Assembly (NCBI RefSeq): GCF_036507355.1
Contig: NZ_AP027877.1
Direction: 5' to 3' (one strand)
Source: Escherichia coli
GTDB taxonomy: Bacteria > Pseudomonadota > Gammaproteobacteria > Enterobacterales > Enterobacteriaceae
DNA length: 64,000 nt
The position numbers and the translations under genes are program-made. Shown here in pieces: positions 1 through 19,988 of this stretch; the stretch's first letter is position 1; each line of letters opens with the position of its first letter. Under the pieces are notes generated by a model that ran no database searches, was not told where the DNA came from, and worked only from the letters and a program-made list of their open reading frames with translations.

Positions 1-2411
1 TTATCTTTCAGCATCAGCCCCCATTGGCACTGAGTCAGCGCCCGGAGAAATAGTCTGACTAAAATATCATCACTACGTTTGCTTCCGACTTTTAGTTTCA
101 TATCAGAAAACACCGTCCGGCAATAGAGAAAATCACACCAGTCATCCCAGTCAGCCAGGGTCTTCAGTGTATGCGTTTGCCGCCAGTCGTCGAAAAGGGA
201 GCGTTGCTGCAGAGCCTCTTCCATATTATCCCACGGGCGGGAAAACATCAGTAGATGCCCTTCATTCATGGCGGGCCGTACGGGCTGGCGTTTGAAATCG
301 AATTCCAGATTAAGACGGATATCCTGTTCCCGGGATACCAGATCGCTTTCCGAGAGCCACATCTCACGCGTTGATATCAACGTACTTCGGGATAACGTCT
401 GACCGGGTAAACGATTAAGGTAAAGATCTACCATATAGTCGTTATAGTCACTGCGTGGAATATCGGCAGGAGGTTTGACGCCAGCCCTGGCATGAACAAC
501 AGGTTTTCCCTGAATCGCTTTATAGGTTAACTGCCCCCGGGTTTTCATGGCGATAAGCTGGCTGACCTCATGCTTACATGTCAACATTGATGAACCCGGA
601 TCAACAATATCGCACAGCGACTGGAAGCGGGAAGACAGTGGACCGCTCATGTTTATCTTGTCAAGTGGGCAATTTGTCAAAAAACCATCGGTTGTGACGC
701 TGACAACCGATGAATCAGAAGGCAAAGCATTCATGAGTTCCCCGACAACGGCGCGGATAAATCCCGTCACATGCGCAGCAAAGAATGGCTGAGTAACCGA
801 TGATGGTGGGAGGGATCTGTTTAATCCACGGGCAGTATCAAAGGCGGTTTTGGCGCGAAGGCCCTGAGCAAGTTTGCCATAAAGCGAGTTGCCAATTTCT
901 TTCCAGAATTTCTCCTCCAAAGAACCCTTAATATGGCGATTACGGTTCTCACGGACCTGTTGAACAAAGGGAAGAAACACCGATGTTGATTCGCTGTTAT
1001 GTGGGGAGGTGTCACAGATCCAGGGGACGATGATCCCATTATGGATCGTCATCTCTGCCCCGAGCGACAGAGCAAGTTCGATTTCAGGTGCCGTTGCCCA
1101 TGATTCGCCACTTAATGGAAAGAATAACCCATATTGATCGGTCCGAACCGGCAGGCTGGGATAGGGAACTGATTCCGGGAACCGAAATGTGACAAGCGCA
1201 AATCCCATCACATGCCCACAGTAATCGTCCGGATTTTTACTGAGGCGGATGTTTCCGTAATCGGGTATGAGGATATCTAATAGCCCGGTGGTATACGCTC
1301 CAGCCAGATCGTAGTCATACCAGTGATCAGACGGTGTAACCCCCATCATAAAACACTCATTGCGTCCGCCGTGGTAACAGTTGATCGGGAACGTTTCAAA
1401 CAACTCTCTTGAAGGAACACTGGCGGGGTTTTTAATCGTCCGGAATGCCTGTTTCTCCGTGAGCCAGAGTTCACGGGTTTTAATGTGTGTCCCAAGGCAG
1501 ACTTCAGGAGACATATTGTTTTCTTTAAGTGTTTTGGTGAACCGTGAAACTGCCATCGCCCCGATGGTGGCGGGGACACGATCAATCATCAGCTCCCGGG
1601 CGCAAAAATTGCGAACCTGTAAAGCATAACGAACCGCAATCTCGGCATCCCGCAGAGCATAGGCTTCAAACCCTGCTCTGTCGCCCAGAAGATATTCACG
1701 CATATTGGTTATGGAATAAGGTGCAGGAATGGTGAGTTTGGGAAGACCCAGTAATTCACCACATTCAGCCAGACCCATACCCCCGGGAGTGATAAGCAGT
1801 GTATCGATGAAAGCTACGTTACTGCAACGCGGAGGGGAAGTTCGTTTGTCAAACATTATCTGTTCAGTCTTTACGCGACGTTCCTGCTGTTCATCAAAAT
1901 CGATACCGTAACGATTTTTGAAGCTGCTGACAGTACCGCGTATTCCTTTCAGAAGAATTTTGTAGTCTGACCAGAAATTGGCAAAGGAGGCGATATCCGC
2001 ACGAATGAAATGCGCATATATATTAATAATACCGGGCCATTTTGTAATCACACCCGTTTCAAGAAGCGGTGTAATCGTTTGACAGAGAAATTCCTTAAAA
2101 GACAGTCGGGATTTTTTCTGTGAGTCAGGTGGATAGATAATGTTCGATATACCAGTGTTATCGGGTAAGACGACATAACTCTGATATGACAGAATATCAT
2201 TCTGTTGTGTTTCAGGATTGAAAACATATTCGGTATCAAAACCGATATGGAGTGTCAGGTCACTTGAAATAACAGATACTTTTTTTGATGCAGGTGGTAT
2301 CACAGGATAATCATCAAGCGTTTTAGGTCTTTTAAGATTGAGCGCTGGCTCTGAAGTCACGGACTGATACCCCGAGGCGGCAGCGAGGATATCCTGCAAA
2401 TTATGGCTCAT
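1..2411 (-). CDS. Primer-independent family B DNA polymerase (piPolB), first ~803 codons; 3' end runs off the left edge
   Basis: Absent from the ORF track because no stop lies in the window. My translation of the minus strand from ATG 2411 (SD GGAG at 2418-2421) stays open to position 1. Motifs read directly: ExoI HIGFDTEYVF, ExoIII YALRDAEIA, Pol A YDYDLAGAYTTG, Pol B KEIGNSLYGKLAQG, Pol C VSVTTDGFL (TTDG codons 684-695), and AMKTRGQLTY (KTRG codons 534-545). KTRG is the piPolB-specific substitute for KxY. Confidence 0.85.
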   Translation of the reverse strand, partial: MSHNLQDILAAASGYQSVTSEPALNLKRPKTLDDYPVIPPASKKVSVISSDLTLHIGFDTEYVFNPETQQNDILSYQSYVVLPDNTGISNIIYPPDSQKKSRLSFKEFLCQTITPLLETGVITKWPGIINIYAHFIRADIASFANFWSDYKILLKGIRGTVSSFKNRYGIDFDEQQERRVKTEQIMFDKRTSPPRCSNVAFIDTLLITPGGMGLAECGELLGLPKLTIPAPYSITNMREYLLGDRAGFEAYALRDAEIAVRYALQVRNFCARELMIDRVPATIGAMAVSRFTKTLKENNMSPEVCLGTHIKTRELWLTEKQAFRTIKNPASVPSRELFETFPINCYHGGRNECFMMGVTPSDHWYDYDLAGAYTTGLLDILIPDYGNIRLSKNPDDYCGHVMGFALVTFRFPESVPYPSLPVRTDQYGLFFPLSGESWATAPEIELALSLGAEMTIHNGIIVPWICDTSPHNSESTSVFLPFVQQVRENRNRHIKGSLEEKFWKEIGNSLYGKLAQGLRAKTAFDTARGLNRSLPPSSVTQPFFAAHVTGFIRAVVGELMNALPSDSSVVSVTTDGFLTNCPLDKINMSGPLSSRFQSLCDIVDPGSSMLTCKHEVSQLIAMKTRGQLTYKAIQGKPVVHARAGVKPPADIPRSDYNDYMVDLYLNRLPGQTLSRSTLISTREMWLSESDLVSREQDIRLNLEFDFKRQPVRPAMNEGHLLMFSRPWDNMEEALQQRSLFDDWRQTHTLKTLADWDDWCDFLYCRTVFSDMKLKVGSKRSDDILVRLFLRALTQCQWGLMLKD

Positions 2412-2422
2412 AGTTAACTCCG

Positions 2423-2450
2423 AAAAAATGCCGGGAGCTGTGTCCCGGCA
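2423..2450 (-). terminator. Intrinsic-terminator-like hairpin between orf212 and piPolB
   Basis: Minus strand reads UGCCGGGA-CACAGC-UCCCGGCA (8-bp GC-rich stem, 6-nt loop) followed directly by UUUUUU (2428-2423). The U-tract abuts the piPolB Shine-Dalgarno. Confidence 0.5.
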
Positions 2451-2457
2451 TAAAGAA

Positions 2458-3096
2458 TCAAGATTTAATAACATTTACTACAGATTTGAAAATATCGGTT
2501 TTGCGTGATTCATCATCTACATGGATAAAGGAAACGAGTTTCCTGCCTGCTTTAATCAGGATACCGCGTTGCGTCTTTTCCACAGACGGGGTAACGTGTG
2601 CAGATAACAGACAATGTTCATGTAAATGAAGAAACTTTTTTGAGGCGTAGCCGCCATGTAATCGGGCTTGAATGTCAAGATACATATCATCAAGAGAACC
2701 GGGTTCTCCTGATTCACTCAATACCGGATAACCCTTCTTATCAAAGAGGTTAAGGATAGATTTACTATCATGTTCGAACAGGGTAACACCGTAAATGTAT
2801 TTCATTCGAAAGGTGAGGGAATCGGTGGTGTAGACCTCCTCCTGACGATTGAAATTTTTGAGACGCCTGGCTAATTCATTAAAAACAGCACGAGCAGTAG
2901 CCGTGTCCTGCAGGGTGTAGGTATAAAGTACGAAGCCATCTGTGCCGATGAGCTTTACTAAGTTGTCCATAATCGTGATAGCGAGAACTAATGCAAAGGA
3001 TAGATATTTTTCATCGTTGTCTACAGCTGTGTTTGCTGCTTCAGGAAGAATGTTCAGTGCATTATTAGCATTATTTGCTGTGTTCTTAGTAACCAT
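2458..3096 (-). CDS. Hypothetical protein (212 aa), recombination/replication module of the element
   Basis: Intact ORF co-oriented with int, xis and piPolB. Its start overlaps the xis stop by 11 nt. It has an Asn/Ala-rich N-terminus and no motif I can assign. Confidence 0.6.
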   Translation of the reverse strand: MVTKNTANNANNALNILPEAANTAVDNDEKYLSFALVLAITIMDNLVKLIGTDGFVLYTYTLQDTATARAVFNELARRLKNFNRQEEVYTTDSLTFRMKYIYGVTLFEHDSKSILNLFDKKGYPVLSESGEPGSLDDMYLDIQARLHGGYASKKFLHLHEHCLLSAHVTPSVEKTQRGILIKAGRKLVSFIHVDDESRKTDIFKSVVNVIKS

Positions 3097-3286
3097 TTAT
3101 ATCACCTTTAAGTTTGTTTTGACGATGTGCATTTTCCCACTCAACAATATCATCAAGAGAGAATCGTATAGCCCGCCCAATTCTGATGAAGGGCGGGAGT
3201 TTTCCGGGGTTGCGCGATATATCTGACGCAACCGTGGATGCAGAAAGATTAAATCTTTCTGCGAACTGCTTAATGGTTAAATACAT
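3086..3286 (-). CDS. AlpA/MerR-like helix-turn-helix excisionase / transcriptional regulator (66 aa)
   Basis: The small protein MYLTIKQFAERFNLSASTV...IRIGRAIRFSLDDIVEWE has the typical AlpA-family pattern. It lies immediately downstream of the integrase on the same strand. Confidence 0.75.
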   Translation of the reverse strand: MYLTIKQFAERFNLSASTVASDISRNPGKLPPFIRIGRAIRFSLDDIVEWENAHRQNKLKGDINGY

Positions 3287-3436
3287 AAACCTCCGGTTTC
3301 AGAGAATAAGAAGCCACGCGGATTTAATATCAATCCACATTCTGTGATGACTTAATGCAGGGCCCTGCAGAAGCATGCAATGACAATACCGTCCTTAAAC
3401 GAGTGTTGCATCAATCACGAATCACAGATCATAGGT

Positions 3437-4564
3437 TCATTTTGTGTCATAACTTTCTATGACCTGAGAAACCACTGCGTGTGATGTCGCTGCATTGTGA
3501 AAAGCGTAGCGACGGGTCGCCGTGAGTGAATGGTGATTTAGCAGATGGGAAGCGATTGCAATATCCCCGGTCGCCTGTAGTACCCGGGTGGCAAAGGTAC
3601 GGCGCAGGTCATGCATCCGCAGGTTATCAATGTTGGCATCCCGACAAATACGGGCAAAGGTTGCACGCGGATATGCCAGAGGGCGGGCATTGTCGGTTAG
3701 TTGTGGAAAAATGTAAGTTTTGCTGAGCATCAGGTCCTGCTGGCACTGGACAACTGCAATGGCTGGAAGTGCAAGTGGGCAGGTGAAAGGGTGTCCGGAC
3801 TTTGTATCAGGCAGTATGAGTTGATGCATATCCGGGTGCCAGTACTCCCATTTCAGGGTACATACCTCACCAATACGCATCCCCGTATAAAGAGCAAGCA
3901 ATATAGAATCAGCTGCCGGTGTTTGCAGCGCTGTTGCTGCGTTAATAAAGCGCGGGATTTCTGTCGCTGACAGTGTGCGATAGCGAATGTTATTTTCTTT
4001 CAGATAGCGGACATGTGACATCGGGGAATGTGTGATCCATCCAGCACGTACTGCCAGAGAGCATATTTTGGACAATATTGCGAGGATACGGTTTACTGTT
4101 GACGGACGTAATTTTTCCCGTAAGCCAGCAGCATATTGTTCTAGTTCTCCTGCCGTGATGTCGCGAAGTTGCCGCTTGCCCCAGAACGGGCGAACGTAGA
4201 GGTTGAGTTTTGACAACTCTGACTGAGGACTCTTTTTATACAACTGCAAATCCGGTAGCCACAGGTCATTGATGGCCTGTTCCACAGTGAATCGACGGGA
4301 CTGAACAGCAAGGCGATTTTTATCGGCAAGCAGGTTCATCACATGCTGACGGGCATCCTCAATGCAGAGATGAGGGAATTCACCCAGTGTTTCATATATA
4401 CGTTGATTTTTGATGGTGGCGCGAAAGGCCAGCGTGATCCGTTTTGGATATACCAGTGCACGCAGGTTTTGGCACTGAATATCACGGTATTCCTGACAAC
4501 CCGTGAGGGGATGTGGAAGTTGGTGAATTGATTTGTTGCTGAAACGCAGATCCAGAATAGGCAT
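3437..4564 (-). CDS. Tyrosine site-specific recombinase (phage-type integrase), 375 aa
   Basis: Catalytic signature read in the translation: R in YTGMRIGE, HDLRRTF (H-x-x-R), LLNHHS (H), TRRYAF (Y nucleophile). SD GGAG lies upstream of the ATG. Confidence 0.9.
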   Translation of the reverse strand: MPILDLRFSNKSIHQLPHPLTGCQEYRDIQCQNLRALVYPKRITLAFRATIKNQRIYETLGEFPHLCIEDARQHVMNLLADKNRLAVQSRRFTVEQAINDLWLPDLQLYKKSPQSELSKLNLYVRPFWGKRQLRDITAGELEQYAAGLREKLRPSTVNRILAILSKICSLAVRAGWITHSPMSHVRYLKENNIRYRTLSATEIPRFINAATALQTPAADSILLALYTGMRIGEVCTLKWEYWHPDMHQLILPDTKSGHPFTCPLALPAIAVVQCQQDLMLSKTYIFPQLTDNARPLAYPRATFARICRDANIDNLRMHDLRRTFATRVLQATGDIAIASHLLNHHSLTATRRYAFHNAATSHAVVSQVIESYDTK

Positions 4565-4706
4565 CGTATTTCTCCTGTAAATGACACTGGAAAAATACGA
4601 TGTGAGGTTATAGTCTGCCAGTTACAGCTTTCACAGTTCATCAGGTGAAAAATGCTGATTCGGATATAATGGCAACACAATTCCATGTCGCCATTATATT
4701 AAGAAA

Positions 4707-6239: not shown

Positions 6240-7475
6240 TTAAAAGGAAATAAACAGAGCCTTTCGCCGATGAATCAATGTGCTGATTTCCCTCAAATCA
6301 GCCTCAATACTACCAACATCACCAAAGACTTCACCTCTAATCTCACTTCGATTTTTCATGAAATTGGTGCTTAATAAGCTTTCTTTTTTTAATGCCATTA
6401 ATTTTGGTTTTATATCGTTATAGAAATGCTTACGGCTTACCCTGATGCTATGAATCGAGTAGTAAACTGTTTTATACATCAAAAATATAAGTAACTGGCC
6501 GAGAAGATATTCTTTTTCAATGTATTTATATTGAGAGGATTTTTCGCGTTTCGCCAGGTAGAAAACATGAGGTGCGATGATGGTGGGGATAAAATCCAGT
6601 GCTGGAGAGGTTTTGGTTTTTTCTGTTTCTCTTCCGGATTGAAGATGTTGAAGTACAGAGTATACAATGCTTAAAATTATGGCGTTACTTATATTATTAA
6701 TTGCAGTTGGGTAAATATGCAGATTGCTTATCAATTCTGAAAGGCAAAGTAAAACACCAGTGATGTTGGGTTTTCTGCCGGAGATTGTGGTGCTGTTGAA
6801 AATGTGACGATTCTTACGACTTATATTGACAAGTTTATGAGTGCAGAACTCTATATGTTCGACGATTTTATCTTGACTATTTTTAATGTATTTTGAAATG
6901 TTAGTGATCCGGCCATTCAACGTTAGTTCATCAAGCAATATATCATTTTTAATATTGCGAATTTCATCGCAATGTTCACATTGAGAAACTATCTCATGTA
7001 ATACATAACTCGAAGTATTGCGTGACGATGCTGATATGTAATCTAAAATGGAATGCTCGACTTTGATTTTTTGTTTGTATTTTTTAATGCACTGTTTGAT
7101 TGTTTTTTGTAGAGTATTTGAGATGTGTTTTTTATATTCTTTTAGAAAATCTTGCTCTAAAAAGAGTGAGGAGAAGATCAACTGCTGGCGAGATAATTTA
7201 ATCTCAGGCTTGATCAATTTAATCCGAAAAACTCTTCCCTCCAACTCATAGCTGAACATGGAAGATAAGTCATAGTGGGGTGATAAATGTTCGAGTAACG
7301 ACATTCGTGTATTCATTAGCCGCTTGAATTTATGGTCAGCATACATAAGTGTTTTTTTTATTTGCTCATCATAAAGTGGGCCGATAGCGCAGTTGGCAAT
7401 ACTCATTCTATCCGGAGACCTCCAGTCAGCAGGGGAATCACATTGACGGTCATCATTACTATCAAAGGGCATCAA
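6240..7475 (-). CDS. Hypothetical protein (411 aa), AT-rich orphan with Lys-rich helical N-half and hydrophobic C-half
   Basis: Long intact ORF transcribed divergently from hsdM. Segments GVLLCLSELISNL, AIILSIVYSVL, FIPTIIAPHVFYL and LLGQLLIFLMY look membrane-associated. Start is 7475 or 7472 (tandem ATG), with a weak SD. Confidence 0.55.
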   Translation of the reverse strand: MMPFDSNDDRQCDSPADWRSPDRMSIANCAIGPLYDEQIKKTLMYADHKFKRLMNTRMSLLEHLSPHYDLSSMFSYELEGRVFRIKLIKPEIKLSRQQLIFSSLFLEQDFLKEYKKHISNTLQKTIKQCIKKYKQKIKVEHSILDYISASSRNTSSYVLHEIVSQCEHCDEIRNIKNDILLDELTLNGRITNISKYIKNSQDKIVEHIEFCTHKLVNISRKNRHIFNSTTISGRKPNITGVLLCLSELISNLHIYPTAINNISNAIILSIVYSVLQHLQSGRETEKTKTSPALDFIPTIIAPHVFYLAKREKSSQYKYIEKEYLLGQLLIFLMYKTVYYSIHSIRVSRKHFYNDIKPKLMALKKESLLSTNFMKNRSEIRGEVFGDVGSIEADLREISTLIHRRKALFISF

Positions 7476-11246: not shown

Positions 11247-11295
11247 TGAATCTTCATGTGACCAGTAGCGAGTAGCGCCAGAAAGAAAAGGATTA

Positions 11296-14200
11296 ATGAT
11301 GAACCAGACGTACACGCCTAAATTCCAGGAAGAATACAGCGCCAAAATTCCGGCACTGACGTTACTGACCAGCCTCGGCTGGACGTTTTTATCTCCGAAA
11401 CAGATTATGGATTACCGGGGCTATAAACAGGATGAGGTGGTGCTGCGTCCGGTTCTGCGTGAAGAGCTGTCGAAGCGTTCCTTTATGGCGGGTGGCAAAA
11501 CCTGCCAGTTATCGGAAAAAGCACTGGATAACCTGATATCACAGGTCTGTTCTCCGGCGCTGAATGAAGGGCTGCTCAAAGCCAATGAACGGATGTATAA
11601 CCATCTGCTCTACGGTATCGCCGTCACGGAGTTTGTCGATGGCAAGAAGGTGAACCCCACCATTGCGCTGATCGACTGGGAACATCCGGAAAGTAACCAG
11701 TTCCATTTTACCGAAGAATTTACGGTATTGCGGTCAGGCGGTGTCGAAACCCGCAGGCCGGATATTGTGTGTTTTGTGAATGGTATCCCGCTGGCCGTCA
11801 TTGAAGCGAAAAGCCCGGCGGGTCACGGCAAGAAAGGGCCAACCATTGACGAAGGGATATCCCAGAGTATCCGCAATCAGCTCAACGACGAAATCCCGCA
11901 GCTGTTTGCTTACAGCCAGATATTACTGTCGATTAACGGGCATGACGGGCGCTACGGTACCTGTCATACACCAATGAAATTCTGGGCGGCATGGCGCGAA
12001 GAAGATATTACTTACGCGCAGATGTATGCGCTGCGCAACCATAAGTTATCGACTGAACAAATTCATGCGTTGTTTGATGATCGTCCTTCAGTCGATCTCA
12101 AATGGTATCAACAGTTAATCGATGGGGGGGAACTGGCAGTCAGCGGGCAGGATAAGCTGCTCATCAGTCTGCTTTCACCGGAACGTCTGCTGGAGATGAC
12201 CCGCTTCTTCACCCTGTTTGATAAAAAAACCGGAAAAATTGTTGCCCGCTATCAGCAGGTGTTCGGTATTAAAAGACTGCTGGAACGCATCAGTACCCGC
12301 AGACCAGACGGGGGCAGGGAAGGTGGGGTGATCTGGCATACCACGGGGTCAGGTAAATCTTACACCATGGTATTCCTCAGCAAGGCGCTGATTCTTCATG
12401 ACAGCCTGAAGCAGTGTCGTATTGTGGTGGTGACGGACCGCGTGGACCTTGAAGGGCAGCTCAGCGGCACTTTTGTCTCTGGTGGCGAACTGGCAGGGAA
12501 GGATGATAAGGCCAAAGCGATGGCAACCTCAGGTCAGAAGCTGGCACAGCAGATTGGCTCTGGTAAAGAACGTATAATCTTTACCCTTATCCAGAAATTT
12601 AACTCAGCGACAAAATTGCCTGAATGCGTCAACACCAGCCCCGACATCATCGTTCTGATTGATGAAGGACACCGTAGCCAGGGTGGTGAGAACCATGTGC
12701 GAATGAAACTGGCACTGCCGAACGCCGCCTTTGTGGCATTTACTGGTACGCCATTGCTAAAAGAAGATAAGACCACCAATAAATTCGGGCCGATTGTCCA
12801 CGCTTATACCATGCAGCGAGCGGTAGAAGATAAAGCCGTTACACCTTTGCTGTATGAAGAACGTATTCCCGACCTTGAGGTTAACGATCGGGCAATAGAT
12901 GCCTGGTTTGATCGTATTACCGATGGGTTAAGCGAAGCGCAAAAAGCCGACCTTAAGCGTAAATATGCCCGTAAAGGTGAGGTTTATAGTGCAGATGATC
13001 GCATCCGTCTGATCGCACTCGATATCGCCACGCACTTCTCGAAGAATATTGATGAGGGGCTGAAAGGCCAGCTTGCCTGCGACAGCAAGATTTCCGCCAT
13101 CAAATATAAAAAGTATCTTGATGAAGCCGGGTTGTTTGAGTCAGCAGTAGTTATCAGCCCGCCGGATACCCGGGAAGGGAATACCGAAGTGGATGAAAGC
13201 AAACTGCCGGAAGTGACGAAATGGTGGAAGGATAATGTCGGCACGCAGGATGAGTCTGTGTATACCCGTAATATCATCAGTCGTTTCGATACCGATGAGA
13301 AGCTCAAATTGCTGATAGTCGTTGATAAACTGCTCACCGGGTTTGATGAGCCGAAGAATACCGTGCTGTATATCGACAAGCCGCTTAAGTCCCACAACCT
13401 TATCCAGGCGATTGCGCGGGTGAACCGACTGCATCCACTAAAAAAGTTCGGTCTGCTGATTGATTATCGCGGTATTCTGGCTGAGCTGGACACGACTATC
13501 GGCAAATATCAGGACCTCGCCTCCCGAACTCAGGGCGGATACGATATCAAAGATATTGACGGGCTGTACAGCGCCATGAGCTCTGAATACAAGCGCCTGC
13601 CGCATCTGTATAACCAGCTGTGGGCCATATTTGCCGGTGTTAAAAACAAAAATGATACTGAGCAGTTACGTGCGGTACTGGTGCCTAAAATGGAAGAACG
13701 TGACGGAGAGATGGTCGATATCCATCAGAAAACCCGTGATGATTTCTTCGAGGCGTTAACGGCCTTTGCCGGATGCCTGAAAGTGGCACTGCAGTCCGCT
13801 ACCTTCTTCACCGACAAGAGCTTTACGGAACAAGACCGAAATCTCTATAAAGAAACCGTAAAACAGATGTCCAGCCTGCGCCAGTGGGCGATGCAGGTAA
13901 GTGGAGAGCAGGTCAATTATGACGACTACGCTGAGCAGGTGAAAAAACTGCTGGATAAGCATGTCACCGGCGTTGAGGTTCGTGAACCGGATGGCGTGTA
14001 TGAAGTCGGTAAAATGGGCAAGAGCGAAAAGCCCGAAGAGTGGGACAACAATAAAACCCGCAATGAAACCGACATCATTAAAACCCGCGTGACGAAGATG
14101 ATTGAGCAGGAATTGCGTGATGACCCGTATGCTCAGGAGGCATTTTCAAAACTCCTGCGTATGGCTATCGAAGAGGCTGAAAAACTGTTTGACCATCCGC

Positions 14201-14583
14201 TGAAACAGTACCTTTTGTTCCGTGAATTTGAAGAACAGGTTGAAGCCCGTAAGCTCAGCGATATCCCGGATGCACTGGCGGTAAACAAGCATGCTCAGGC
14301 GTATTACGGTGTATTTAAAAAAGAGCTACCTGAGGTTTTTGCGGTAAACGACGTTCAGGTGCAGGATAAGTGGACCAAGCTGGCTTTTGAAGTGGACAAC
14401 ATTATCGTCAAAGCGGTGGCAGAAAACTCCCTGAACCCCCAGGACATTGAGAAAGTCGTTAAGACAAGTCTGCTACCACTGCTGTTTACGGCCTGCCGGG
14501 AAATTGGTGCCGGAATGAATCAGGTTAACCGTATTGTGGAAACCATCATCCAGATACTGCGCGTTGGTTTGATGAAATCATGA
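11296..14583 (+). CDS. hsdR: Type I R-M restriction/translocase subunit HsdR (1095 aa)
   Basis: N-terminal PD-(D/E)xK nuclease motif (RPDIVCFVNGIPLAVIEAKSP). SF2 helicase motif I is TTGSGKSYT and motif II is VLIDEGHRSQ. Operon context with hsdM/hsdS. Confidence 0.95.
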   Translation: MMNQTYTPKFQEEYSAKIPALTLLTSLGWTFLSPKQIMDYRGYKQDEVVLRPVLREELSKRSFMAGGKTCQLSEKALDNLISQVCSPALNEGLLKANERMYNHLLYGIAVTEFVDGKKVNPTIALIDWEHPESNQFHFTEEFTVLRSGGVETRRPDIVCFVNGIPLAVIEAKSPAGHGKKGPTIDEGISQSIRNQLNDEIPQLFAYSQILLSINGHDGRYGTCHTPMKFWAAWREEDITYAQMYALRNHKLSTEQIHALFDDRPSVDLKWYQQLIDGGELAVSGQDKLLISLLSPERLLEMTRFFTLFDKKTGKIVARYQQVFGIKRLLERISTRRPDGGREGGVIWHTTGSGKSYTMVFLSKALILHDSLKQCRIVVVTDRVDLEGQLSGTFVSGGELAGKDDKAKAMATSGQKLAQQIGSGKERIIFTLIQKFNSATKLPECVNTSPDIIVLIDEGHRSQGGENHVRMKLALPNAAFVAFTGTPLLKEDKTTNKFGPIVHAYTMQRAVEDKAVTPLLYEERIPDLEVNDRAIDAWFDRITDGLSEAQKADLKRKYARKGEVYSADDRIRLIALDIATHFSKNIDEGLKGQLACDSKISAIKYKKYLDEAGLFESAVVISPPDTREGNTEVDESKLPEVTKWWKDNVGTQDESVYTRNIISRFDTDEKLKLLIVVDKLLTGFDEPKNTVLYIDKPLKSHNLIQAIARVNRLHPLKKFGLLIDYRGILAELDTTIGKYQDLASRTQGGYDIKDIDGLYSAMSSEYKRLPHLYNQLWAIFAGVKNKNDTEQLRAVLVPKMEERDGEMVDIHQKTRDDFFEALTAFAGCLKVALQSATFFTDKSFTEQDRNLYKETVKQMSSLRQWAMQVSGEQVNYDDYAEQVKKLLDKHVTGVEVREPDGVYEVGKMGKSEKPEEWDNNKTRNETDIIKTRVTKMIEQELRDDPYAQEAFSKLLRMAIEEAEKLFDHPLKQYLLFREFEEQVEARKLSDIPDALAVNKHAQAYYGVFKKELPEVFAVNDVQVQDKWTKLAFEVDNIIVKAVAENSLNPQDIEKVVKTSLLPLLFTACREIGAGMNQVNRIVETIIQILRVGLMKS

Positions 14584-15335
14584 GTGAAAAAGAATCGCCA
14601 TCAATGAAAGCGTTACGCATTGTCTATGGTGATGATGTCATCACCGTACAGTGTGTTCCGCGTCAGGTCGTAAAGGGCAGGGTGCTCATCAAGGTTTATC
14701 CGGACTGCCGGGTTGTGGCCTCTGTACCGCCTGAAACACCGGAGCACGAGGTATTGTCTGCGCTGAAAAAAAGAGGGCGCTGGATATACCAGCAACTGCG
14801 TGATTTCAGGGAGCAACAGACACACATTGTTCCGCGTCAGTATGTCAGCGGAGAAAGCCATTATTATCTCGGTAAGCAATATCAGTTGAAAGTGACAGAA
14901 GACGCTACTGTGCCGCAACGAGTGAAAATGTTGCGTGGGCGTCTGGAAGTGACTGTCAGACACAAATCGGCAGAAAAGATTAAAGCCTTGCTGGCTGAAT
15001 GGTATCGGGAACGTGCCAGAGATGTTTTTCAGCGCAGGCTTGATTTACTGATTCCGCAGACCCTTTGGGTCAGTGAGCGTCCTCCGATACGTCTGCGGGC
15101 GATGCAAACGCAATGGGGCAACTGTTCAGCAAAAGGCTGTCTGACCCTGAATCCATGGCTGGTTAAGGCATCCTCAGAATGTATCGATTATGTTTTGCTA
15201 CATGAGTTATGCCATGTGGCTGAGCACAACCACAGCGAGGAGTTTTACCGTCTGATGGGGCAGGTTATGCCTGGGTGGGAAAAGGTCAAGAAACGACTGG
15301 ATGGGATGGCTGGGATGTTGTTGGCTGATATGTAA
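14580..15335 (+). CDS. M48/DUF45 (YgjP-like) zinc metallopeptidase coupled to hsdR
   Basis: HExxH motif in YVLLHELCHVAEHNHSEEFY, followed by a WxxxK tail typical of DUF45. The ATG overlaps the hsdR stop (ATGA). Confidence 0.85.
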   Translation: MSEKESPSMKALRIVYGDDVITVQCVPRQVVKGRVLIKVYPDCRVVASVPPETPEHEVLSALKKRGRWIYQQLRDFREQQTHIVPRQYVSGESHYYLGKQYQLKVTEDATVPQRVKMLRGRLEVTVRHKSAEKIKALLAEWYRERARDVFQRRLDLLIPQTLWVSERPPIRLRAMQTQWGNCSAKGCLTLNPWLVKASSECIDYVLLHELCHVAEHNHSEEFYRLMGQVMPGWEKVKKRLDGMAGMLLADM

Positions 15336-15393
15336 CTTATCAATATGAGTTCTTAAGGGTTTGGTCAGTCTCGTTAATGTAGGGAGTATAATA

Positions 15394-17232
15394 ATGAGTA
15401 AGTTAGATAATAAAATTGAAGCACGCCATCGTAATTTGTTTGATGTTCTAAATGCGCAAAAATATACCGTTGATTACTTTCAGCGCGAGTATAGCTGGGG
15501 TGAGAAACATATTGAAGAGTTGGTTACAGACTTAACATCTGCGTTTCTCAATGAATACACCGTCGGTGATTCTCGGGAGCAGGGTGAAAACTACAATAAT
15601 TATTACTTAGGACCATTTGTTGTGAGTAGTAAAGATGGGAAACGGAGTATTATTGATGGTCAGCAACGACTGACTTCATTAACTTTATTTCTAATTTACC
15701 TCCATAACCTTCAGAAAGAACTTAAATATGAAGAGAAAATAGAATCAATGATTTTCTCCGAGTTACGTGGCAGCAAATCATTCAATATAGTAGTTGAAGA
15801 CAGAATACCTTGCATGGAAGCATTGTTTAATTTTGGTAGCTATAGTTTAGTTGATGGGGATGATGAGTCAACCCATAACATGGTGGAGAGATATCAGAAT
15901 ATCACAGATGCTTTTCCTGATGAATTAAAAGGTCAGGCTTTTCCTTTTTTTATCGACTGGCTTAAGTATAACGTTATTATGGTTGAGATAGTTGCCTATT
16001 CAGATGAAAACGCATATACCATCTTTGAGACTATGAATGACCGAGGATTAAATCTTACTCCGTCCGAAATGCTTAAAGGTTTTTTACTTTCACGCTTTCA
16101 TCAGGGAGATAAACGCCAAAAGGTAAATGAACTCTGGAAAAAAGCGATGATGGATTTAAAAAACTATGATAAAGATGAAGACCAACGTTTTTTCCAGTCA
16201 TGGTTGCGTGCTCAATATGCTGATACAATACGCCCGGGTAAAGCTGGTTCAAAAAATGAAGACTTTGAAAAAATAGGTACGCGTTTTCATAGCTGGGTTA
16301 GAGATAATCTTCAGGCGGTGGGATTGGACCCAGATAATGGTGAGACATTCGAACGATTTATACAAAAAAACTTTTTGTTTTATTTGAATGCCTATACACA
16401 AATACTGAATGCTGAGAGAGCATTAACGCACCAACTGGAATATGTATTTTATATCCACCATTGGGGTATTGCACCTACTTTAAGTTTCCCTTTGATGTTG
16501 GCTCCATTAAATGTAGGTGACAGTCCTGATGCTGTGATAGCCAAAATAAACCTGGTGGCGCGCTATATTGAAACATTTGTTGTTCGTCGTTCTGTTAATT
16601 TCCGAAAATTCTCTGCCAGTTCTATTCGTTACACAATGTACAGTCTTGTTAAAGAAATTCGTGGTAAAAGTATTGAAGAATTAAAAGATTTGTTATCTAA
16701 GAAGTTATCCGAAATGCCAGATACTTTTGCAGGAATGGAAGAGTTTCGTCTCCATGGTCAAAACTATCGTTTTGTGAAGTTTTTGCTTTCTCGTATAACT
16801 GCGTGGGTTGAGCAGCAAGCCGGAATGAGTACAACCTTCATTACATATTATCAGCCAGAACACGGTAAGCCATTTGAAGTCGAGCATATTTGGGCCGATA
16901 AATATGAACGTTACTCTGATGAGTTTGAACAAGAGCACGAATTTAACAATTACAGAAATCGCTTAGGTGATTTGGTTTTATTACCTAGAGGCTCAAACCA
17001 GTCATATGGTGATTTGTGTTACGATCAAAAGCAACCTCATTACATCAAAGAGAATCTCCTGGCTAAATCGTTATGCCCATTGGCATATATGAATAACCCT
17101 AATTTCAATCAGTTGAGAAATGTATTCGGATTGCCTTTCAAACCACATGATTCATTTAAAAAACAAGATGTCGATGAACGACAGTCTTTGTATAAAATAA
17201 TTTGTGAGAATATTTGGGACCATAATTTATAG
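15394..17232 (+). CDS. DUF262/DUF1524 two-domain nuclease, GmrSD-like type IV restriction enzyme
   Basis: The N-terminal DUF262 signature IIDGQQRLTSL is present. The C-terminal His-Me finger-like part reads FEVEHIWADK ... NRLGDLVLLPRGSNQSYGD. I chose ATG 15394 (SD AGGGAG 8 nt upstream) over the TTG at 15361 used in the ORF track. Confidence 0.85.
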   Translation: MSKLDNKIEARHRNLFDVLNAQKYTVDYFQREYSWGEKHIEELVTDLTSAFLNEYTVGDSREQGENYNNYYLGPFVVSSKDGKRSIIDGQQRLTSLTLFLIYLHNLQKELKYEEKIESMIFSELRGSKSFNIVVEDRIPCMEALFNFGSYSLVDGDDESTHNMVERYQNITDAFPDELKGQAFPFFIDWLKYNVIMVEIVAYSDENAYTIFETMNDRGLNLTPSEMLKGFLLSRFHQGDKRQKVNELWKKAMMDLKNYDKDEDQRFFQSWLRAQYADTIRPGKAGSKNEDFEKIGTRFHSWVRDNLQAVGLDPDNGETFERFIQKNFLFYLNAYTQILNAERALTHQLEYVFYIHHWGIAPTLSFPLMLAPLNVGDSPDAVIAKINLVARYIETFVVRRSVNFRKFSASSIRYTMYSLVKEIRGKSIEELKDLLSKKLSEMPDTFAGMEEFRLHGQNYRFVKFLLSRITAWVEQQAGMSTTFITYYQPEHGKPFEVEHIWADKYERYSDEFEQEHEFNNYRNRLGDLVLLPRGSNQSYGDLCYDQKQPHYIKENLLAKSLCPLAYMNNPNFNQLRNVFGLPFKPHDSFKKQDVDERQSLYKIICENIWDHNL

Positions 17233-17290
17233 CAAAGTTAGGGTGTTAATTAATCTGTAATGGCATCATGATTTTTAAAAGGAGGTTGAA

Positions 17291-18418
17291 TTGCGTTCTG
17301 AAACGTTTTTTGTCAAATTTATTGAACAACTGAAAGGTATTTCGGTTGAGGATGATGTTGAATTCAATTTTTTTGAATTGGGTGGTTCCGGATATCTCGA
17401 AAATCCAACTACGGATTTGATGGCTTTGTTTATGGGAGCCCAGAAAATGGTGCCGCCATGGTTGCTCAAAGCATTGCTATGTTGCCTGGATGATTCCCTC
17501 GATGTTGATGAAATTGATTTCACTTCTCTGGAGCTAATGAGAGAGGCCCGAACAGAAGATGGGAAATATATTGATATTCTTATCAGACATGATGAATTCA
17601 TTATAGGTATTGAGCATAAAGTTCTGGCTGATACATATAATCCTTTTCCCAGCTATGTAAGTCTCATTGATAGTTACGGCGGCAACAATCAAAAACTATT
17701 TCGCTGTATATTAAAGCCTGACGGTAACAGCGCTAAAGGCGTAGACGGTTGGCAACTGATCAATTATTCACTGCTGCTGGAAACCGCCATTCGACGTCTG
17801 GGGTTGGAGATGATGAATCAAGAGTTCAGCAAGTGGACTGTTTTTTATCAGGAGTTTTTAAGTCATCTTAAAAAATTGAGTGAGGTTAGTATGGATAAGG
17901 TATCTGATAAAAATGTGGAGTTTGTCACTGAAAATTTCTCAGCTTTGATAAAATCGGTTCAACTGCTGGAAATGTACCAAAATGCTATCACCGAGGAAGC
18001 TAAATCGGTTGTCTCAGAGGTATTGCCTGATATTCATATTGCAACAGGTATTAATAACTGGAAGGGTTACTATAAAGCAATTCATCTGATGCCGGGATGC
18101 TGGGGGCAAGGTAAAACAGGAATTACGTTAGTTTATCGCCCTTCAGAGGATGGACGAGATGAAGCTGAGTTCTACGTATATGGATGGATACATTCAGATG
18201 ATTACCCTGAAGTTAATGCACTAAAAGAAGAAATAAGAGTTGCTTTAAGTGCTGGAGATTTCATTCCAACAGCTAGCCCTGAGGACTATGAAGTATCAAT
18301 TACTGGGAAGGGGAAAGTGCTTGAACTGAGTTTTTGGGGGAATACGAGAAGCAAAAAAGATGCACTGGTTCTTCTTAAGGATATGACTAAGTGGATGGAC
18401 TCAAAAATAAGAACATAA
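17291..18418 (+). CDS. PD-(D/E)xK nuclease superfamily protein (PDDEXK_4-like), 375 aa
   Basis: The N-terminal FNFFELGGSGYLENPTTDLMALF pattern is followed by EDGKYIDILIRHDEFIIGIEHKV (D ... E-x-K core). TTG start with a strong SD (AAGGAGG, 5 nt spacing). Confidence 0.65.
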   Translation: MRSETFFVKFIEQLKGISVEDDVEFNFFELGGSGYLENPTTDLMALFMGAQKMVPPWLLKALLCCLDDSLDVDEIDFTSLELMREARTEDGKYIDILIRHDEFIIGIEHKVLADTYNPFPSYVSLIDSYGGNNQKLFRCILKPDGNSAKGVDGWQLINYSLLLETAIRRLGLEMMNQEFSKWTVFYQEFLSHLKKLSEVSMDKVSDKNVEFVTENFSALIKSVQLLEMYQNAITEEAKSVVSEVLPDIHIATGINNWKGYYKAIHLMPGCWGQGKTGITLVYRPSEDGRDEAEFYVYGWIHSDDYPEVNALKEEIRVALSAGDFIPTASPEDYEVSITGKGKVLELSFWGNTRSKKDALVLLKDMTKWMDSKIRT

Positions 18419-18522
18419 AGTAATATGACTGAGTGATGACGATCTTTTTTAAATTGTGGATTATTAGGCTGGTAATTGAAGCGCCGAATAGACAGATATT
18501 GGAATAAAAGGAGAATATTCAA

Positions 18523-19704
18523 ATGATTTATCAGTGTGATACTTGCAGTAGAACGACTTTTGAGGTTAATTGTCCCTGGTGTAGTGGAGTTTCGCCTGTA
18601 AAAACGTCTGCATGGGGTTCAGCATCATCGACCGCACAAGCAATAGGCATACAACGTATGACACCATTGAATCCATCGTTTTATCCCGAATTTCAGTATC
18701 GTTCAAAGGGTGTTCTAAAAGATCTATTTGGGAAAAAGAAAGAGCAAACTCAGCTTAATCAATTGCTTGAAAATGTTCTCAAAAAATACTCCAGTTTAAA
18801 AGATCCATATTTTACTAACTTCATTTACACTTCCAGATTCTCACATAATAATAAATCGGAAGCAGATTACTCAACAGATAATGGTACATACTCCGAATTA
18901 CAACTTTTCCGTGAGGTGTTGGTCAGAAAAGGGTTCAATGAGCTTGAGCAGTTACCTGAGCTATTAGATAAATTACTCCTTACCACGTCATTTAACGCTC
19001 TTTATTATGGTTTCGCTAAGGAAGTTAAACGGCATATTAAATCCACACTTACTGAATCCTTGAAGTCATGGATTGAGGAAGCGGGTACCACTTTTAGGGC
19101 AGATCTTTCATTGTTTCTATTCTATATATGGAGCAATAAAATAGAGTTCTCATCAGTAGAGTTCAATGAAAAAGCGGAGGCTACGCCTGGTGTTCCTTTA
19201 GTTTCATTTGATGAAGTTAAAAAATACTTAGCTGTGTGCGAACATATTTATTTTGATATTCTGGTTGATAGATTAGCTACACGGCTCGAACATTTTAACC
19301 CTAACAAATTCGTCACCATGTATTTAGTTGATGCAATGGACGGTTTCCAGTTTGAAGATTTCCTTGTGGAAGTATTCCAGACTATGGGCTATGACGTCAA
19401 AGAAACCAAGAGAACGCAAGATCAGGGGGCAGATCTCTTCGTCACTCGATTTGGTAAGGATATGGTTATTCAGGCGAAAAATTATTCTGGTTCTGTAGGT
19501 AACTCGGCGGTGCAGCAGGTGATCTCTGCTAAAACATTCTATGGTTGTGATGAGGCGATGGTTGTGACTAATTCCTACTTCACACGCTCTGCCAAAGAAT
19601 TAGCTGAATCAGCCTTGGTACGTTTGATCGACAGGGATGAACTGCAAAAGTATCTGGATGATTACAATCAGAAGATAATTGAAGATTTCCAGTCAAACTC
19701 GTAA
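18523..19704 (+). CDS. Mrr-like restriction endonuclease with N-terminal zinc ribbon (393 aa)
   Basis: N-terminus has CDTC-x11-CPWC (4-Cys ribbon). The C-terminal Mrr_cat-type domain reads DGFQFEDFLVEVFQTMGYDV...QGADLFV...VIQAKNYSGSVG...VVTNSYFT. SD AAGGAG lies upstream. Confidence 0.8.
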   Translation: MIYQCDTCSRTTFEVNCPWCSGVSPVKTSAWGSASSTAQAIGIQRMTPLNPSFYPEFQYRSKGVLKDLFGKKKEQTQLNQLLENVLKKYSSLKDPYFTNFIYTSRFSHNNKSEADYSTDNGTYSELQLFREVLVRKGFNELEQLPELLDKLLLTTSFNALYYGFAKEVKRHIKSTLTESLKSWIEEAGTTFRADLSLFLFYIWSNKIEFSSVEFNEKAEATPGVPLVSFDEVKKYLAVCEHIYFDILVDRLATRLEHFNPNKFVTMYLVDAMDGFQFEDFLVEVFQTMGYDVKETKRTQDQGADLFVTRFGKDMVIQAKNYSGSVGNSAVQQVISAKTFYGCDEAMVVTNSYFTRSAKELAESALVRLIDRDELQKYLDDYNQKIIEDFQSNS

Positions 19705-19889
19705 CTTTGCAGTCATATAGATATAGCAAAGGACAGGTAGGCCTCCGTGAGAGGGGGACTTACCTGTGCAGATTCTGTGCTCAAAGTTATCCAAGTCTAT
19801 CTATTTACTGCCAATTACAGTAAAATGAGTAAGCAATTACAGCAAAGTTTCGCAATGCACTGCTATGTAACTCATTGATCCTGCGTAGA

Positions 19890-19945
19890 ATTTAAAATCC
19901 CTCGGCGTTCGCGCTGTGCGGGTTCAAGTCCCGCTCCGGGTACCA
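19890..19945 (+). repeat. attR-type direct repeat: 3' 56 nt of tRNA-Leu(UAA) leuZ (anticodon loop to CCA), not a functional tRNA
   Basis: ATTTAAAATCCCTCGGCGTTCGCGCTGTGCGGGTTCAAGTCCCGCTCCGGGTACCA matches the 3' part of K-12 leuZ as I recall it. The sequence 5' of 19890 does not match the acceptor or D arm. Confidence 0.8.
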
Positions 19946-19988
19946 TGGGAAAGATAAGAATAAAATCAAAGCAATAAGCAGTGTCGTG

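What the first reader, a model, noticed from the sequence alone, without database searches (positions are those of the whole stretch)
1..19945. Pipolin (piPolB-encoding self-replicating element) at tRNA-Leu with a stacked defence cargo
Seen: an edge-truncated ~803-codon minus-strand ORF carries family-B polymerase motifs, including the unusual TTD (motif C) and KTRG. A tyrosine recombinase and an AlpA-like excisionase lie just upstream on the same strand. The accessory block stops exactly at a 56-nt copy of the 3' half of tRNA-Leu(UAA), after which K-12 synteny resumes (terminator, yecA). Established: primer-independent PolB (piPolB) genes define pipolins (Redrejo-Rodriguez et al. 2017), and in E. 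coli these integrate at a tRNA-Leu gene bounded by direct repeats. Inference: the window holds the right ~20 kb of such an element. Its cargo half is a defence island: type I R-M with two accessory genes, GmrSD-like, PD-(D/E)xK, Mrr-like and two orphan genes. An element that can make its own primers and also carries at least five nuclease-bearing proteins is the most unusual biology in the window.
Basis: partly seen in the sequence, partly recalled or inferred. Interest (0 to 1): 0.8.

Follow-up and report, generated by a model that had tools for sequence, protein, structure and literature searches.

The report
Known E. coli pipolin with defence cargo
The first 20 kb of the window are the right-hand three quarters of a pipolin, a mobile island that carries its own primer-independent DNA polymerase and a load of restriction-type defence genes. 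It sits at the leuZ tRNA gene of E. coli, and this kind of element, this insertion site and this cargo have all been published already.

Summary
Window 1-2411 (-) encodes the first 803 of 866 residues of a piPolB. Every residue mutated in the characterised E. coli enzyme sits at the same number (D59/E61, D368, K613/H614, K623/R625, plus TTD). Upstream on the same strand lie a 212-aa orphan, an HTH_17 excisionase, a tyrosine recombinase and two more orphans. On the + strand lie hsdM-hsdS-yecA-like-hsdR-YgjP peptidase, a GmrSD, a PD-(D/E)xK protein and an Mrr-like nuclease.

The island ends at 19889/19890. The repeat there is 133 bp (19890-20022), not 56 nt. It covers the tRNA-Leu 3' half, the 3'ETS-leuZ sRNA and its terminator. 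K-12 synteny follows at 98.5% identity.

Complete genomes with the same element show the missing ~6.6 kb: an intact leuZ/att copy, a second integrase, DUF2787 and IS1. The whole unit is ~26.6 kb. piPolB DNA occurs in 294 of 5426 complete E. coli genomes.

- The 376-aa orphan belongs to the conserved core, not the cargo.
- None of the orphans has a detectable function.
- In vivo excision and replication remain unproven.

Pipolins at leuZ (2017, 2020) and their role as defence islands carrying type I RM, PDC-S12, PDC-S26 and HEC-06 (NAR 2024) are published. Verdict: already known, low interest.

The parts
1..2411 (-). piPolB (primer-independent family-B DNA polymerase), codons 1-803 of 866. The last 63 codons lie off the left edge of the window.
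   Evidence: Open frame. 100% identical to WP_053266087.1 residues 1-803. D59/E61, D368, K613/H614, K623-T-R625-G and TTD573 are at the published positions. Sub-threshold DNA_pol_B_2 hit. 71-72% identical to the polymerases of Serratia and Edwardsiella pipolins, which keep the same motifs.
2458..3096 (-). orf212, an orphan of the conserved pipolin core lying between the excisionase and piPolB. Function unknown.
   Evidence: No hit in Pfam, PHROGs, NCBIfam or PADLOC. Found in the same position at 29% and 46% identity in Serratia and Edwardsiella pipolins. Named 'hypothetical protein' in every source.
3086..3286 (-). Excisionase-type HTH protein (Xis).
   Evidence: Pfam HTH_17 E 5.9e-9. PHROG 66 'excisionase and transcriptional regulator'. 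TIGR01764 'excise' below its cut-off.
3437..4564 (-). Tyrosine recombinase, the 'IntP2'-type integrase of enterobacterial pipolins.
   Evidence: Phage_integrase E 1.6e-21 and Phage_int_M. PHROG 1 integrase E 8.8e-50. Candidate tyrosine-recombinase catalytic motifs are visible in the sequence by eye (MRIGE, HDLRRTF, LNHHS, RRY). The pairing with an adjacent excisionase near piPolB is as described in PMC11551731.
4707..5837 (-). orf376, an orphan of the pipolin core and the first gene of the co-oriented string that ends in piPolB. Function unknown.
6240..7472 (-). orf410 (probably 388 aa starting from M23 at 7406), an orphan at the border between core and cargo. Function unknown.
   Evidence: Only a weak, sub-threshold AbiJ_NTD4 hit (E 0.006). 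13 homologue clusters, all from Enterobacterales where a source name is given. Present in the Edwardsiella pipolin (58% identity) but absent from the Serratia one. AF2 pLDDT 40, so the model is unusable. GC content about 35%.
7779..9302 (+). hsdM, type I R-M methyltransferase.
   Evidence: N6_Mtase E 4e-107 and HsdM_N. PADLOC MTase_I E 3e-133.
9292..10566 (+). hsdS, type I specificity subunit.
   Evidence: Methylase_S, two stretches. PADLOC Specificity_I E 1e-213. Replaced by other specificity variants in otherwise near-identical elements.
10563..11246 (+). YecA-like protein (UPF0149 + SEC-C) embedded in the R-M operon. It matches the PADLOC candidate PDC-S12.
   Evidence: UPF0149 E 1.8e-30 and SEC-C. 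PDC-S12 E 2.4e-99. 57% identical to the chromosomal YecA at 20141-20806. Overlaps the hsdS stop codon by 4 nt.
11296..14583 (+). hsdR, type I restriction endonuclease and translocase.
   Evidence: HSDR_N, SWI2_SNF2, T1R_D3-like and ResIII. PADLOC REase_I, score 1363 bits.
14580..15335 (+). YgjP-like (M48/WLM-type) zinc metallopeptidase, overlapping the hsdR stop codon by 4 nt.
   Evidence: YgjP-like E 3e-58. HELCH (HExxH) motif at residue 208. Travels with the R-M module in the Edwardsiella pipolin at about 96% DNA identity.
15394..17232 (+). GmrSD-family type IV (modification-dependent) restriction enzyme. The ORF could begin at 15361; RefSeq starts it at 15394.
   Evidence: GmrSD_N E 4.6e-33 and GmrSD_C E 6.9e-8. 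DGQQR motif present. Best PADLOC models are HEC-06, E 5e-41.
17291..18418 (+). PD-(D/E)xK nuclease-family protein, PADLOC candidate PDC-S26.
   Evidence: PDDEXK_4 E 5e-13. PDC-S26 E 1e-50.
18523..19704 (+). Mrr-like restriction endonuclease. It has a C-terminal Mrr_cat domain and an N-terminal CxxC...CxxC zinc-ribbon region of unknown role.
   Evidence: Mrr_cat E 7e-30. A possible D...QxK catalytic motif (GADL...QAK) is read by eye from the sequence. Partial PADLOC hits to ZorD, PDC-S02 and mREase_IV limited to the nuclease domain.
19705..19889 (.). Non-coding right terminus of the element. It is a candidate recombinase arm-site region.
   Evidence: Window 19752-19880 matches at about 79-87% identity in genomes sampled from the lower ranks. 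Serratia element: 90% over 19765-20022. That it binds a recombinase is inference only.
19890..20022 (+). att direct repeat, the copy distal to the intact tRNA. It comprises 56 nt of the tRNA-Leu(UAA) 3' half (19890-19945), the 3'ETS-leuZ sRNA and its intrinsic terminator.
   Evidence: Alignment with the K-12 empty site and with both att copies of RM14721. Pattern uniqueness in the window. This copy is identical to K-12. The tRNA-proximal copy in the one relative aligned (RM14721) is the element's own variant, so the crossover lay within 19890-19952. Published papers call the tRNA-overlapping copy attR, so in that convention this copy is 'attL'.

Best explanation
Window 1-19889, together with the att copy at 19890-20022, is the right-hand ~20 kb of an approximately 26.6-kb pipolin integrated into the 3' half of leuZ (tRNA-Leu UAA).

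The element has two modules. The first is a core written on the minus strand: orf410?-orf376-IntP2 recombinase-excisionase-orf212-piPolB. It continues off the window with IS1, DUF2787, two small genes and an IntSXT-type integrase next to leuZ. The second is a plus-strand cargo module made only of restriction-type defences:
- a type I R-M operon (hsdMSR), which attacks unmodified DNA, with two translationally coupled extras, a YecA-like PDC-S12 protein and a YgjP peptidase;
- a GmrSD enzyme and an Mrr-like enzyme, both from families of type IV, modification-dependent restriction enzymes;
- a PD-(D/E)xK protein (PDC-S26) of unknown target.

Integration happened by tyrosine-recombinase crossover within the 63 nt shared by the element's att and leuZ. 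The element supplied a new tRNA 3' half, 3'ETS and terminator at the proximal junction. The original chromosomal copy was pushed to the distal junction, which is the one seen here.

What is shown here: gene content, motifs, boundaries, synteny and patchy distribution. What is established elsewhere, in vitro only: the orthologous polymerase synthesises primers de novo and replicates DNA (PMC5695915). What is inferred: that this copy can still excise and replicate as a circle, which integrase does the work, and that each cargo gene is active.
For: Polymerase identity and motifs. Recombinase and excisionase. att and empty-site alignment.

Complete elements in RM14721, KH_005 and HKUOPY1, with leuZ, IntSXT-type integrase, DUF2787 and IS1 to the left. 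The unit length of 26,587 bp in HKUOPY1 comes.

Patchy distribution: piPolB DNA in 294 of 5426 genomes, always chromosomal. The full 20 kb is found in 78 genomes.

Core string conserved across genera: piPolB 71-72% and IntP2 69-78% identical. The type I R-M/YecA/YgjP block is about 90-96% identical in DNA between E. coli and Edwardsiella elements whose cores are only about 70% identical. This indicates recent cargo exchange.

Cargo downstream of the R-M varies between otherwise identical elements: SIR2, mza, a deaminase or BrxU-like genes. Low GC content (35-41%) in the orphans and the type IV block.

Literature: pipolins at Leu-tRNA with att repeats. Bimodular defence islands with Type I RM, PDC-S12, PDC-S26 and HEC-06.
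Against: The second att copy, leuZ and the IntSXT integrase are not in the window, so the completeness of this particular copy is inferred from near-identical relatives.

Those relatives carry an IS1, a frameshifted gene next to leuZ, and lack the WYL/GTPase genes that Serratia and Edwardsiella pipolins have. Mobility may therefore be impaired.

No excised-circle junction was found in the JGI metagenome contigs. That negative has no positive control, and the genome-contig scan was uninformative.

The literature itself says the biological role of piPolB is still unclear.

One island at leuZ (strain ampC_0069) has lost the whole core and keeps only related cargo, and genomes sampled from the lower ranks share just the terminal ~120 nt. 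The core is therefore dispensable for keeping the island in the chromosome.
Confidence: 0.93

Rival explanations
1. The island is a fixed, decaying pipolin remnant. It is an immobile defence island kept by selection on its cargo, and piPolB and the recombinases no longer move or replicate it. The polymerase may instead serve host DNA-damage tolerance.
For: Relatives with the same element have an IS1 and a deletion of WYL/GTPase genes between piPolB and DUF2787, plus a frameshifted gene next to leuZ (versus 34, 35). A core-less derivative that retains related R-M/GmrSD cargo at leuZ exists (strain ampC_0069). No circular junction was found. Published work reports a damage-tolerance phenotype and an unclear role for piPolB, and clonal groups in which mobility cannot be detected.
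Against: All core ORFs in the window are intact. piPolB is 100% identical between strains of different origin. Both att copies are well preserved. Published cophylogeny shows incongruence between pipolins and hosts in phylogroups A and B1, which implies transfer.
Confidence: 0.35
2. The polymerase belongs to another self-synthesising or protein-primed element (casposon, polinton-like, or phi29/Bam35-type) rather than to a pipolin.
For: The only Pfam hit is a weak one to DNA_pol_B_2, the 'organellar and viral' protein-primed family.
Against: KTRG replaces KxY and TTD replaces DTD, and the KH-X8-KTRG spacing and all mutagenised residues share numbering with the characterised piPolB. Within the window there is no Cas1 and no recognisable terminal protein or capsid gene; tyrosine recombinases and tRNA direct repeats are found instead.
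Confidence: 0.01
3. The two or three orphans (orf376, orf410, orf212) are themselves a new defence system, as the first reader's 'cargo' label implies.
For: orf410 has a faint AbiJ_NTD4 hit (E 0.006). GC content is low. It lies next to the defence cargo.
Against: There is no PADLOC hit. orf376 and orf212 keep a fixed position inside the recombinase-polymerase string in distant pipolins whose cargo differs completely. That is the behaviour of core genes, not of exchangeable cargo.
Confidence: 0.1

Closest known systems
E. coli pipolins at leuZ, with strain 3-373-03_S1_C2 as reference (Redrejo-Rodriguez 2017, PMC5695915; Flament-Simon 2020, PMC7385651)
   Same: The polymerase is 866 aa with identical numbering of D59/E61, D368, K613/H614 and K623/R625. 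Integration is at Leu-tRNA with conserved att direct repeats. A tyrosine recombinase sits next to an excisionase, and R-M components are present.
   Different: This copy lacks the UDG reported as frequent, at least within the window.
Pipolins of complete genomes RM14721 (NZ_CP027105), HKUOPY1 (NZ_CP019961) and KH_005 (NZ_CM174518)
   Same: RM14721 and HKUOPY1 have the window's gene order and KH_005 shares it through the R-M module. DNA identity over the collinear parts is 96-100%, and piPolB is 100% identical in RM14721 and KH_005.
   Different: RM14721 has an extra SIR2 gene before att. HKUOPY1 and KH_005 carry other hsdS specificity variants. KH_005 lacks the PD-(D/E)xK and Mrr genes.
Enterobacterial pipolins as bimodular defence islands (Mateo-Caceres & Redrejo-Rodriguez 2024, PMC11551731)
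   Same: The core lies near the integration site (IntSXT, DUF2787, IntP2+Exc, piPolB, orphans) and the cargo is distal. Type I RM and PDC-S12 are named there as frequent cargo, PDC-S26 among the most frequent systems, and HEC-06 as a rare one. Cargo is exchanged between elements.
   Different: Nothing material differs. This element lacks the WYL gene named there as a core marker, judging from its relatives.
Casposons and polintons (self-synthesising transposons with PolB)
   Same: They are integrative elements that encode their own family-B polymerase.
   Different: Within the window there is no Cas1 or retroviral-type integrase and no Pfam match to any transposase. Instead there are tyrosine recombinases, tRNA-derived direct repeats, and a KTRG/TTD polymerase.
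tRNA-integrating genomic islands and P4-like satellite defence hotspots
   Same: The 3' half of a tRNA is duplicated as att, the integrase lies next to the tRNA, and defence cargo is variable and of low GC content.
   Different: This element carries a replicative polymerase with primase activity and has no phage-satellite genes (PHROGs scan).

Membership tests
Pipolin (piPolB-encoding mobile element) | A piPolB gene: a family-B polymerase with exonuclease motifs, motif A aspartate, TTD motif C, and KH-X8-KTRG in place of KxY. | tested here: met
   DTE59-61, D368, TTD573, K613-H614 and K623-T-R-G are at exactly the published residue numbers. Only 803 of 866 codons lie inside the window.
Pipolin (piPolB-encoding mobile element) | Two att-like direct repeats flanking the element, one of them overlapping a tRNA gene. 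| tested here: inconclusive
   One copy is present (19890-20022). The tRNA-overlapping copy lies off the window. In RM14721 it was aligned directly to the window's att copy; KH_005 and HKUOPY1 show an intact leuZ at the equivalent position, about 6.6 kb left of the window's first base.
Pipolin (piPolB-encoding mobile element) | E. coli type: integration at the Leu-tRNA gene (leuZ) between pgsA-glyW-cysT and yecA. | tested here: met
   A 56-nt leuZ 3' half is followed by the 3'ETS, the terminator and yecA, 98.5% identical to K-12 from 19890 onward.
Pipolin (piPolB-encoding mobile element) | Gammaproteobacterial core genes: IntSXT, IntP2 (+Exc), DUF2787 and orphan proteins. | tested here: inconclusive
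   IntP2-type recombinase, excisionase and orphans are in the window. IntSXT-type integrase and DUF2787 are seen only in relatives' left arms. I did not test whether my orphans are the two used in the published model.
Pipolin (piPolB-encoding mobile element) | Self-replication or excision of the element in vivo. | not testable with these tools
   Only in vitro polymerase and primase activity of the orthologue is published. Junction scans were negative or uninformative.
Type I restriction-modification system | HsdM, HsdS and HsdR encoded together. | tested here: met
   Pfam and PADLOC hits have E-values from 1e-41 to 0. The genes are contiguous on one strand.
GmrSD type IV restriction enzymes | N-terminal DUF262 with DGQQR, plus a C-terminal DUF1524 His-Me nuclease. 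| tested here: met
   GmrSD_N E 4.6e-33 and GmrSD_C E 6.9e-8. DGQQR present. Substrate (glucosyl-hmC DNA) not tested.
Mrr type IV restriction enzymes | Mrr_cat PD-(D/E)xK domain plus an N-terminal winged-helix domain that reads modification. | tested here: not met
   The Mrr_cat domain is present (E 7e-30). The N-terminal 260 residues match no Mrr_N model and begin with a CxxC...CxxC zinc ribbon. It is Mrr-like in its nuclease domain only.
PADLOC candidates PDC-S12 and PDC-S26 | Match to the candidate-family HMM. | tested here: met
   PDC-S12 E 2.4e-99 and PDC-S26 E 1e-50. These families are candidates in PADLOC and their defence activity was not tested here.
Casposon | Cas1 integrase together with PolB. 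| tested here: not met
   No Cas1 domain in any ORF of 1-20000. The relatives' left arms encode a tyrosine integrase instead.

The most novel reading that the evidence does not exclude
orf376 and orf212 are unrecognised parts of the pipolin's excision or replication machinery, for example origin recognition or a polymerase accessory factor. Both are found only in pipolins. Both are locked in a co-oriented string with IntP2, Xis and piPolB from Escherichia to Serratia and Edwardsiella. They evolve faster than the enzymes around them (29-69% identity against 69-78%). The orf376 family has only 6 full-length clusters among 1.84 billion representative proteins. If true, they could explain how a primer-independent PolB is directed to its own element.
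Probability: 0.3. Interest if true: 0.5.

Novelty: already known. Interest (0 to 1): 0.2.

Why it matters
As a discovery it matters little. Pipolins, their leuZ site in E. coli and their role as defence-gene reservoirs are published, and this exact element occurs in dozens of sequenced strains.

It is still a clean example of three things:
- Cargo turnover: the R-M block is 90-96% identical between elements whose cores are about 70% identical.
- Core-less derivatives that keep only the defences.
- Three conserved core orphans that nobody has characterised.

The open questions are experimental: whether E. coli pipolins excise and replicate, and what piPolB does in vivo.

Tried and rejected

Profile searches of both orphan families against PDB sequences found nothing. 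phmmer of piPolB against the PDB found no solved relative.

An HMM search of the orf376 family against 1.84 billion representatives found only a handful of full-length relatives.

Scans for an excised-circle (attP) junction gave 0 hits in the JGI metagenome contigs with two patterns and 0 in the GTDB representative genomes. The positive control for the integrated junction also gave 0 in the GTDB set, although the pattern does match the window. That collection simply lacks this element, so these negatives say little.

Repeat and promoter scans inside the island showed nothing beyond the usual HsdS internal repeat.

The 115-aa ORF at 4339-4686 overlaps the recombinase gene in another frame, has no hits and is not annotated in RefSeq. 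I treated it as spurious.

The casposon or protein-primed PolB reading was rejected on motifs.

I checked whether the element's variant of 3'ETS-leuZ disrupts RyhB pairing. The predicted pairing core lies in the invariant part of the repeat.

Full report
OBSERVATION

The minus strand is open from 2411 to the left edge of the window. The 803 translated residues are identical to the first 803 of an 866-aa RefSeq protein, WP_053266087.1, annotated as 'DNA polymerase'. The sequence contains DTE at 59-61, YDLAGAYT with D368, TTD at 573, and KH at 613-614 followed eight residues later by KTRG at 623-626.

These are exactly the residues, with the same numbering, that were mutated in the characterised piPolB of E. 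coli 3-373-03_S1_C2: D59A/E61A, D368A, K613A, H614A, K623A and R625A. KH-X8-KTRG is the motif that replaces KxY in this group (PMC5695915). Pfam gives only a sub-threshold DNA_pol_B_2 hit, as expected for a separate PolB branch. No solved structure is related by sequence.

GENE CONTENT

On the minus strand, going upstream from the polymerase:
- orf212 at 2458-3096, with no family hit.
- An HTH_17 excisionase at 3086-3286.
- A tyrosine recombinase at 3437-4564.
- orf376 at 4707-5837.
- orf410 at 6240-7472.

On the plus strand:
- hsdM at 7779-9302 and hsdS at 9292-10566.
- A UPF0149/SEC-C YecA paralogue at 10563-11246, which matches the PADLOC candidate PDC-S12.
- hsdR at 11296-14583.
- A YgjP-like HExxH peptidase at 14580-15335.
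- A GmrSD enzyme at 15394-17232, whose best PADLOC models are HEC-06.
- A PDDEXK_4 protein at 17291-18418, which matches PDC-S26.
- An Mrr_cat protein at 18523-19704.

That makes four cargo proteins with nuclease domains.

BOUNDARY

ARAGORN finds no tRNA in the window. Window 19890-19945 is an exact copy of leuZ positions 32-87. I aligned the K-12 empty site, the window, and both junctions of a complete relative. It runs about 133 bp (19890-20022) through the annotated sRNA 3'ETS-leuZ and its terminator.

The window's copy is identical to K-12. In the relative whose junctions were aligned (RM14721), the copy next to the intact leuZ is an element-specific variant with 3 substitutions and a 2-nt deletion. 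The crossover therefore occurred inside the first 63 identical bases. The element brought its own tRNA 3' half, spacer and terminator.

From 19890 onward the window matches K-12 at 98.5% identity.

A note on naming: published pipolin papers call the tRNA-overlapping copy attR. In that convention the copy in this window is 'attL'.

THE MISSING LEFT ARM

Three complete genomes carry the same element over the parts they share with the window: RM14721, KH_005 and HKUOPY1. piPolB is 100% identical in the first two, and collinear DNA identity ranges from 96 to 100%.

In all three, piPolB is followed leftwards by a small ORF, IS1, a hypothetical gene, DUF2787, two small genes, an IntSXT-type integrase, a frameshifted gene, and then an intact leuZ-cysT-glyW-pgsA. 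HKUOPY1 has the window's exact gene order. Its att-to-att unit is 26,587 bp, of which about 6.6 kb would lie left of the window.

A near-clone of the source exists as draft assembly GCA_905398635.1 (1 mismatch in 20.5 kb). Many drafts with the same hsdS allele break their contigs at the IS1.

DISTRIBUTION

piPolB DNA is present in 294 of 5426 complete E. coli genomes and is always chromosomal. The two orphans are present in 234 genomes, the GmrSD-PDDEXK-Mrr block in 150, and the whole 20 kb in 78. K-12 has the empty site. The block is therefore accessory, and its parts have different frequencies.

CORE VERSUS CARGO

In Serratia marcescens and Edwardsiella tarda the string orf376-IntP2-xis-orf~200-piPolB recurs in the same order and orientation. 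Protein identities to the window are:
- piPolB: 71-72%
- IntP2: 69-78%
- orf376: 43-69%
- orf212: 29-46%

The Serratia cargo is entirely different. orf376 and orf212 are therefore core genes, not defence cargo. orf410 is present in Edwardsiella but absent in Serratia.

By contrast, the hsdM-to-YgjP block is about 90-96% identical in DNA between the E. coli and Edwardsiella elements, whose cores are only about 70% identical. This is a clear sign of recent cargo exchange.

Downstream of the R-M operon, otherwise identical elements carry SIR2, mza, a deaminase, or BrxU-like genes plus a helicase.

In one genome examined (strain ampC_0069) the island at leuZ has lost the whole core and keeps related R-M/GmrSD cargo between IS and intron debris and the distal att. 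Genomes sampled from the lower ranks share only the terminal ~120 nt of the element.

WHAT IS KNOWN

All of this matches the published picture.
- piPolB and pipolins: PMC5695915.
- E. coli pipolins at Leu-tRNA with conserved att repeats, one recombinase paired with an excisionase, and R-M genes: PMC7385651.
- An annotation pipeline: PMC9710591.
- The 2024 description of enterobacterial pipolins as bimodular defence islands. There, Type I RM, PDC-S12, PDC-S26 and HEC-06 are named cargo, and IntSXT is proposed as the main integrase: PMC11551731.

MECHANISM AND ITS LIMITS

Shown here: anatomy, motifs, boundary and distribution. Established elsewhere, in vitro only: primer-independent synthesis by the orthologue. 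Inferred: that this copy still excises and replicates.

Several points weigh against mobility. Relatives have an IS1 and a deletion in the left arm, and a frameshifted gene next to leuZ. Core-less derivatives exist. The authors themselves state that piPolB's biological role is unclear.

My scans for an attP junction found nothing. The control shows that at least one of the collections lacks the element altogether.

ORPHANS

No family library recognises orf212, orf376 or orf410. Their homologues come only from Enterobacterales where a source name is given. AF2 models were poor or uninformative. PDB profile searches were empty. Their function remains unknown. The conserved position of orf376 and orf212 inside the recombinase-polymerase string is the only lead.

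VERDICT

The feature is an already known kind of element, and indeed an already sequenced one. Interest is low. The remaining questions are experimental.

Noticed in passing
window 32481-32977: There is a clean 14.5-kb deletion relative to K-12 (K-12 1963502-1978013). It removes most of flhD, all of flhC, motAB, cheAW, tar, tap, cheRBYZ and flhB, and the 5' three quarters of flhA, so the host should be non-motile. None of 5426 complete E. coli genomes has this junction. Draft assembly GCA_905398635.1 has it, with 1 mismatch in 20.5 kb. K-12's IS1H upstream of flhD is also absent.
   Followed up: partly
window 19946-20012; L001 7423-7487: Pipolin integration duplicates the sRNA sponge 3'ETS-leuZ. 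The native copy ends up behind a promoterless tRNA fragment at the distal att. The functional glyW-cysT-leuZ operon now ends in the element's own variant (G>C, A>C and a 2-nt deletion in the A-rich 5' part). The predicted RyhB pairing core lies in the invariant part, and the whole-length duplex energies are -45.8 versus -43.6 kcal/mol. Any effect on processing or Hfq binding is untested.
   Followed up: partly
window 10563-11246 and 20141-20806: The YecA-like gene embedded in the type I R-M operon is 57% identical to the chromosomal yecA, which happens to be the first gene outside the island, 9 kb away. Both match the NCBIfam or Pfam YecA models. The role of a YecA paralogue between hsdS and hsdR is unknown.
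   Followed up: partly
L026/L027 (E. coli ampC_0069, NZ_CP046396.1 2097056-2114000): This is a pipolin-derived island at leuZ with no piPolB, integrases or orphans. Transposase fragments and a group II intron sit where the core would be. They are followed by type I R-M with the YecA-like gene, a cold-shock-domain protein, the YgjP peptidase and a DUF262 protein, up to the distal att.
   Followed up: partly
L005 1-2081 (Serratia marcescens JAUJUX010000001.1): In the Serratia locus a second IntSXT-type integrase gene and a 246-aa gene lie just beyond the pipolin's distal att-like sequence (90% identical to window 19765-20022). This suggests a tandem island at the same site.
   Followed up: no
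window 37724-38031 and 41967-42009: The only Rfam hits in the window at gathering threshold are the MicL sRNA (inside cutC) and ES036/CssrF. Both are ordinary core-genome features. The partial tRNA and 3'ETS-leuZ are not picked up by Rfam.
   Followed up: no
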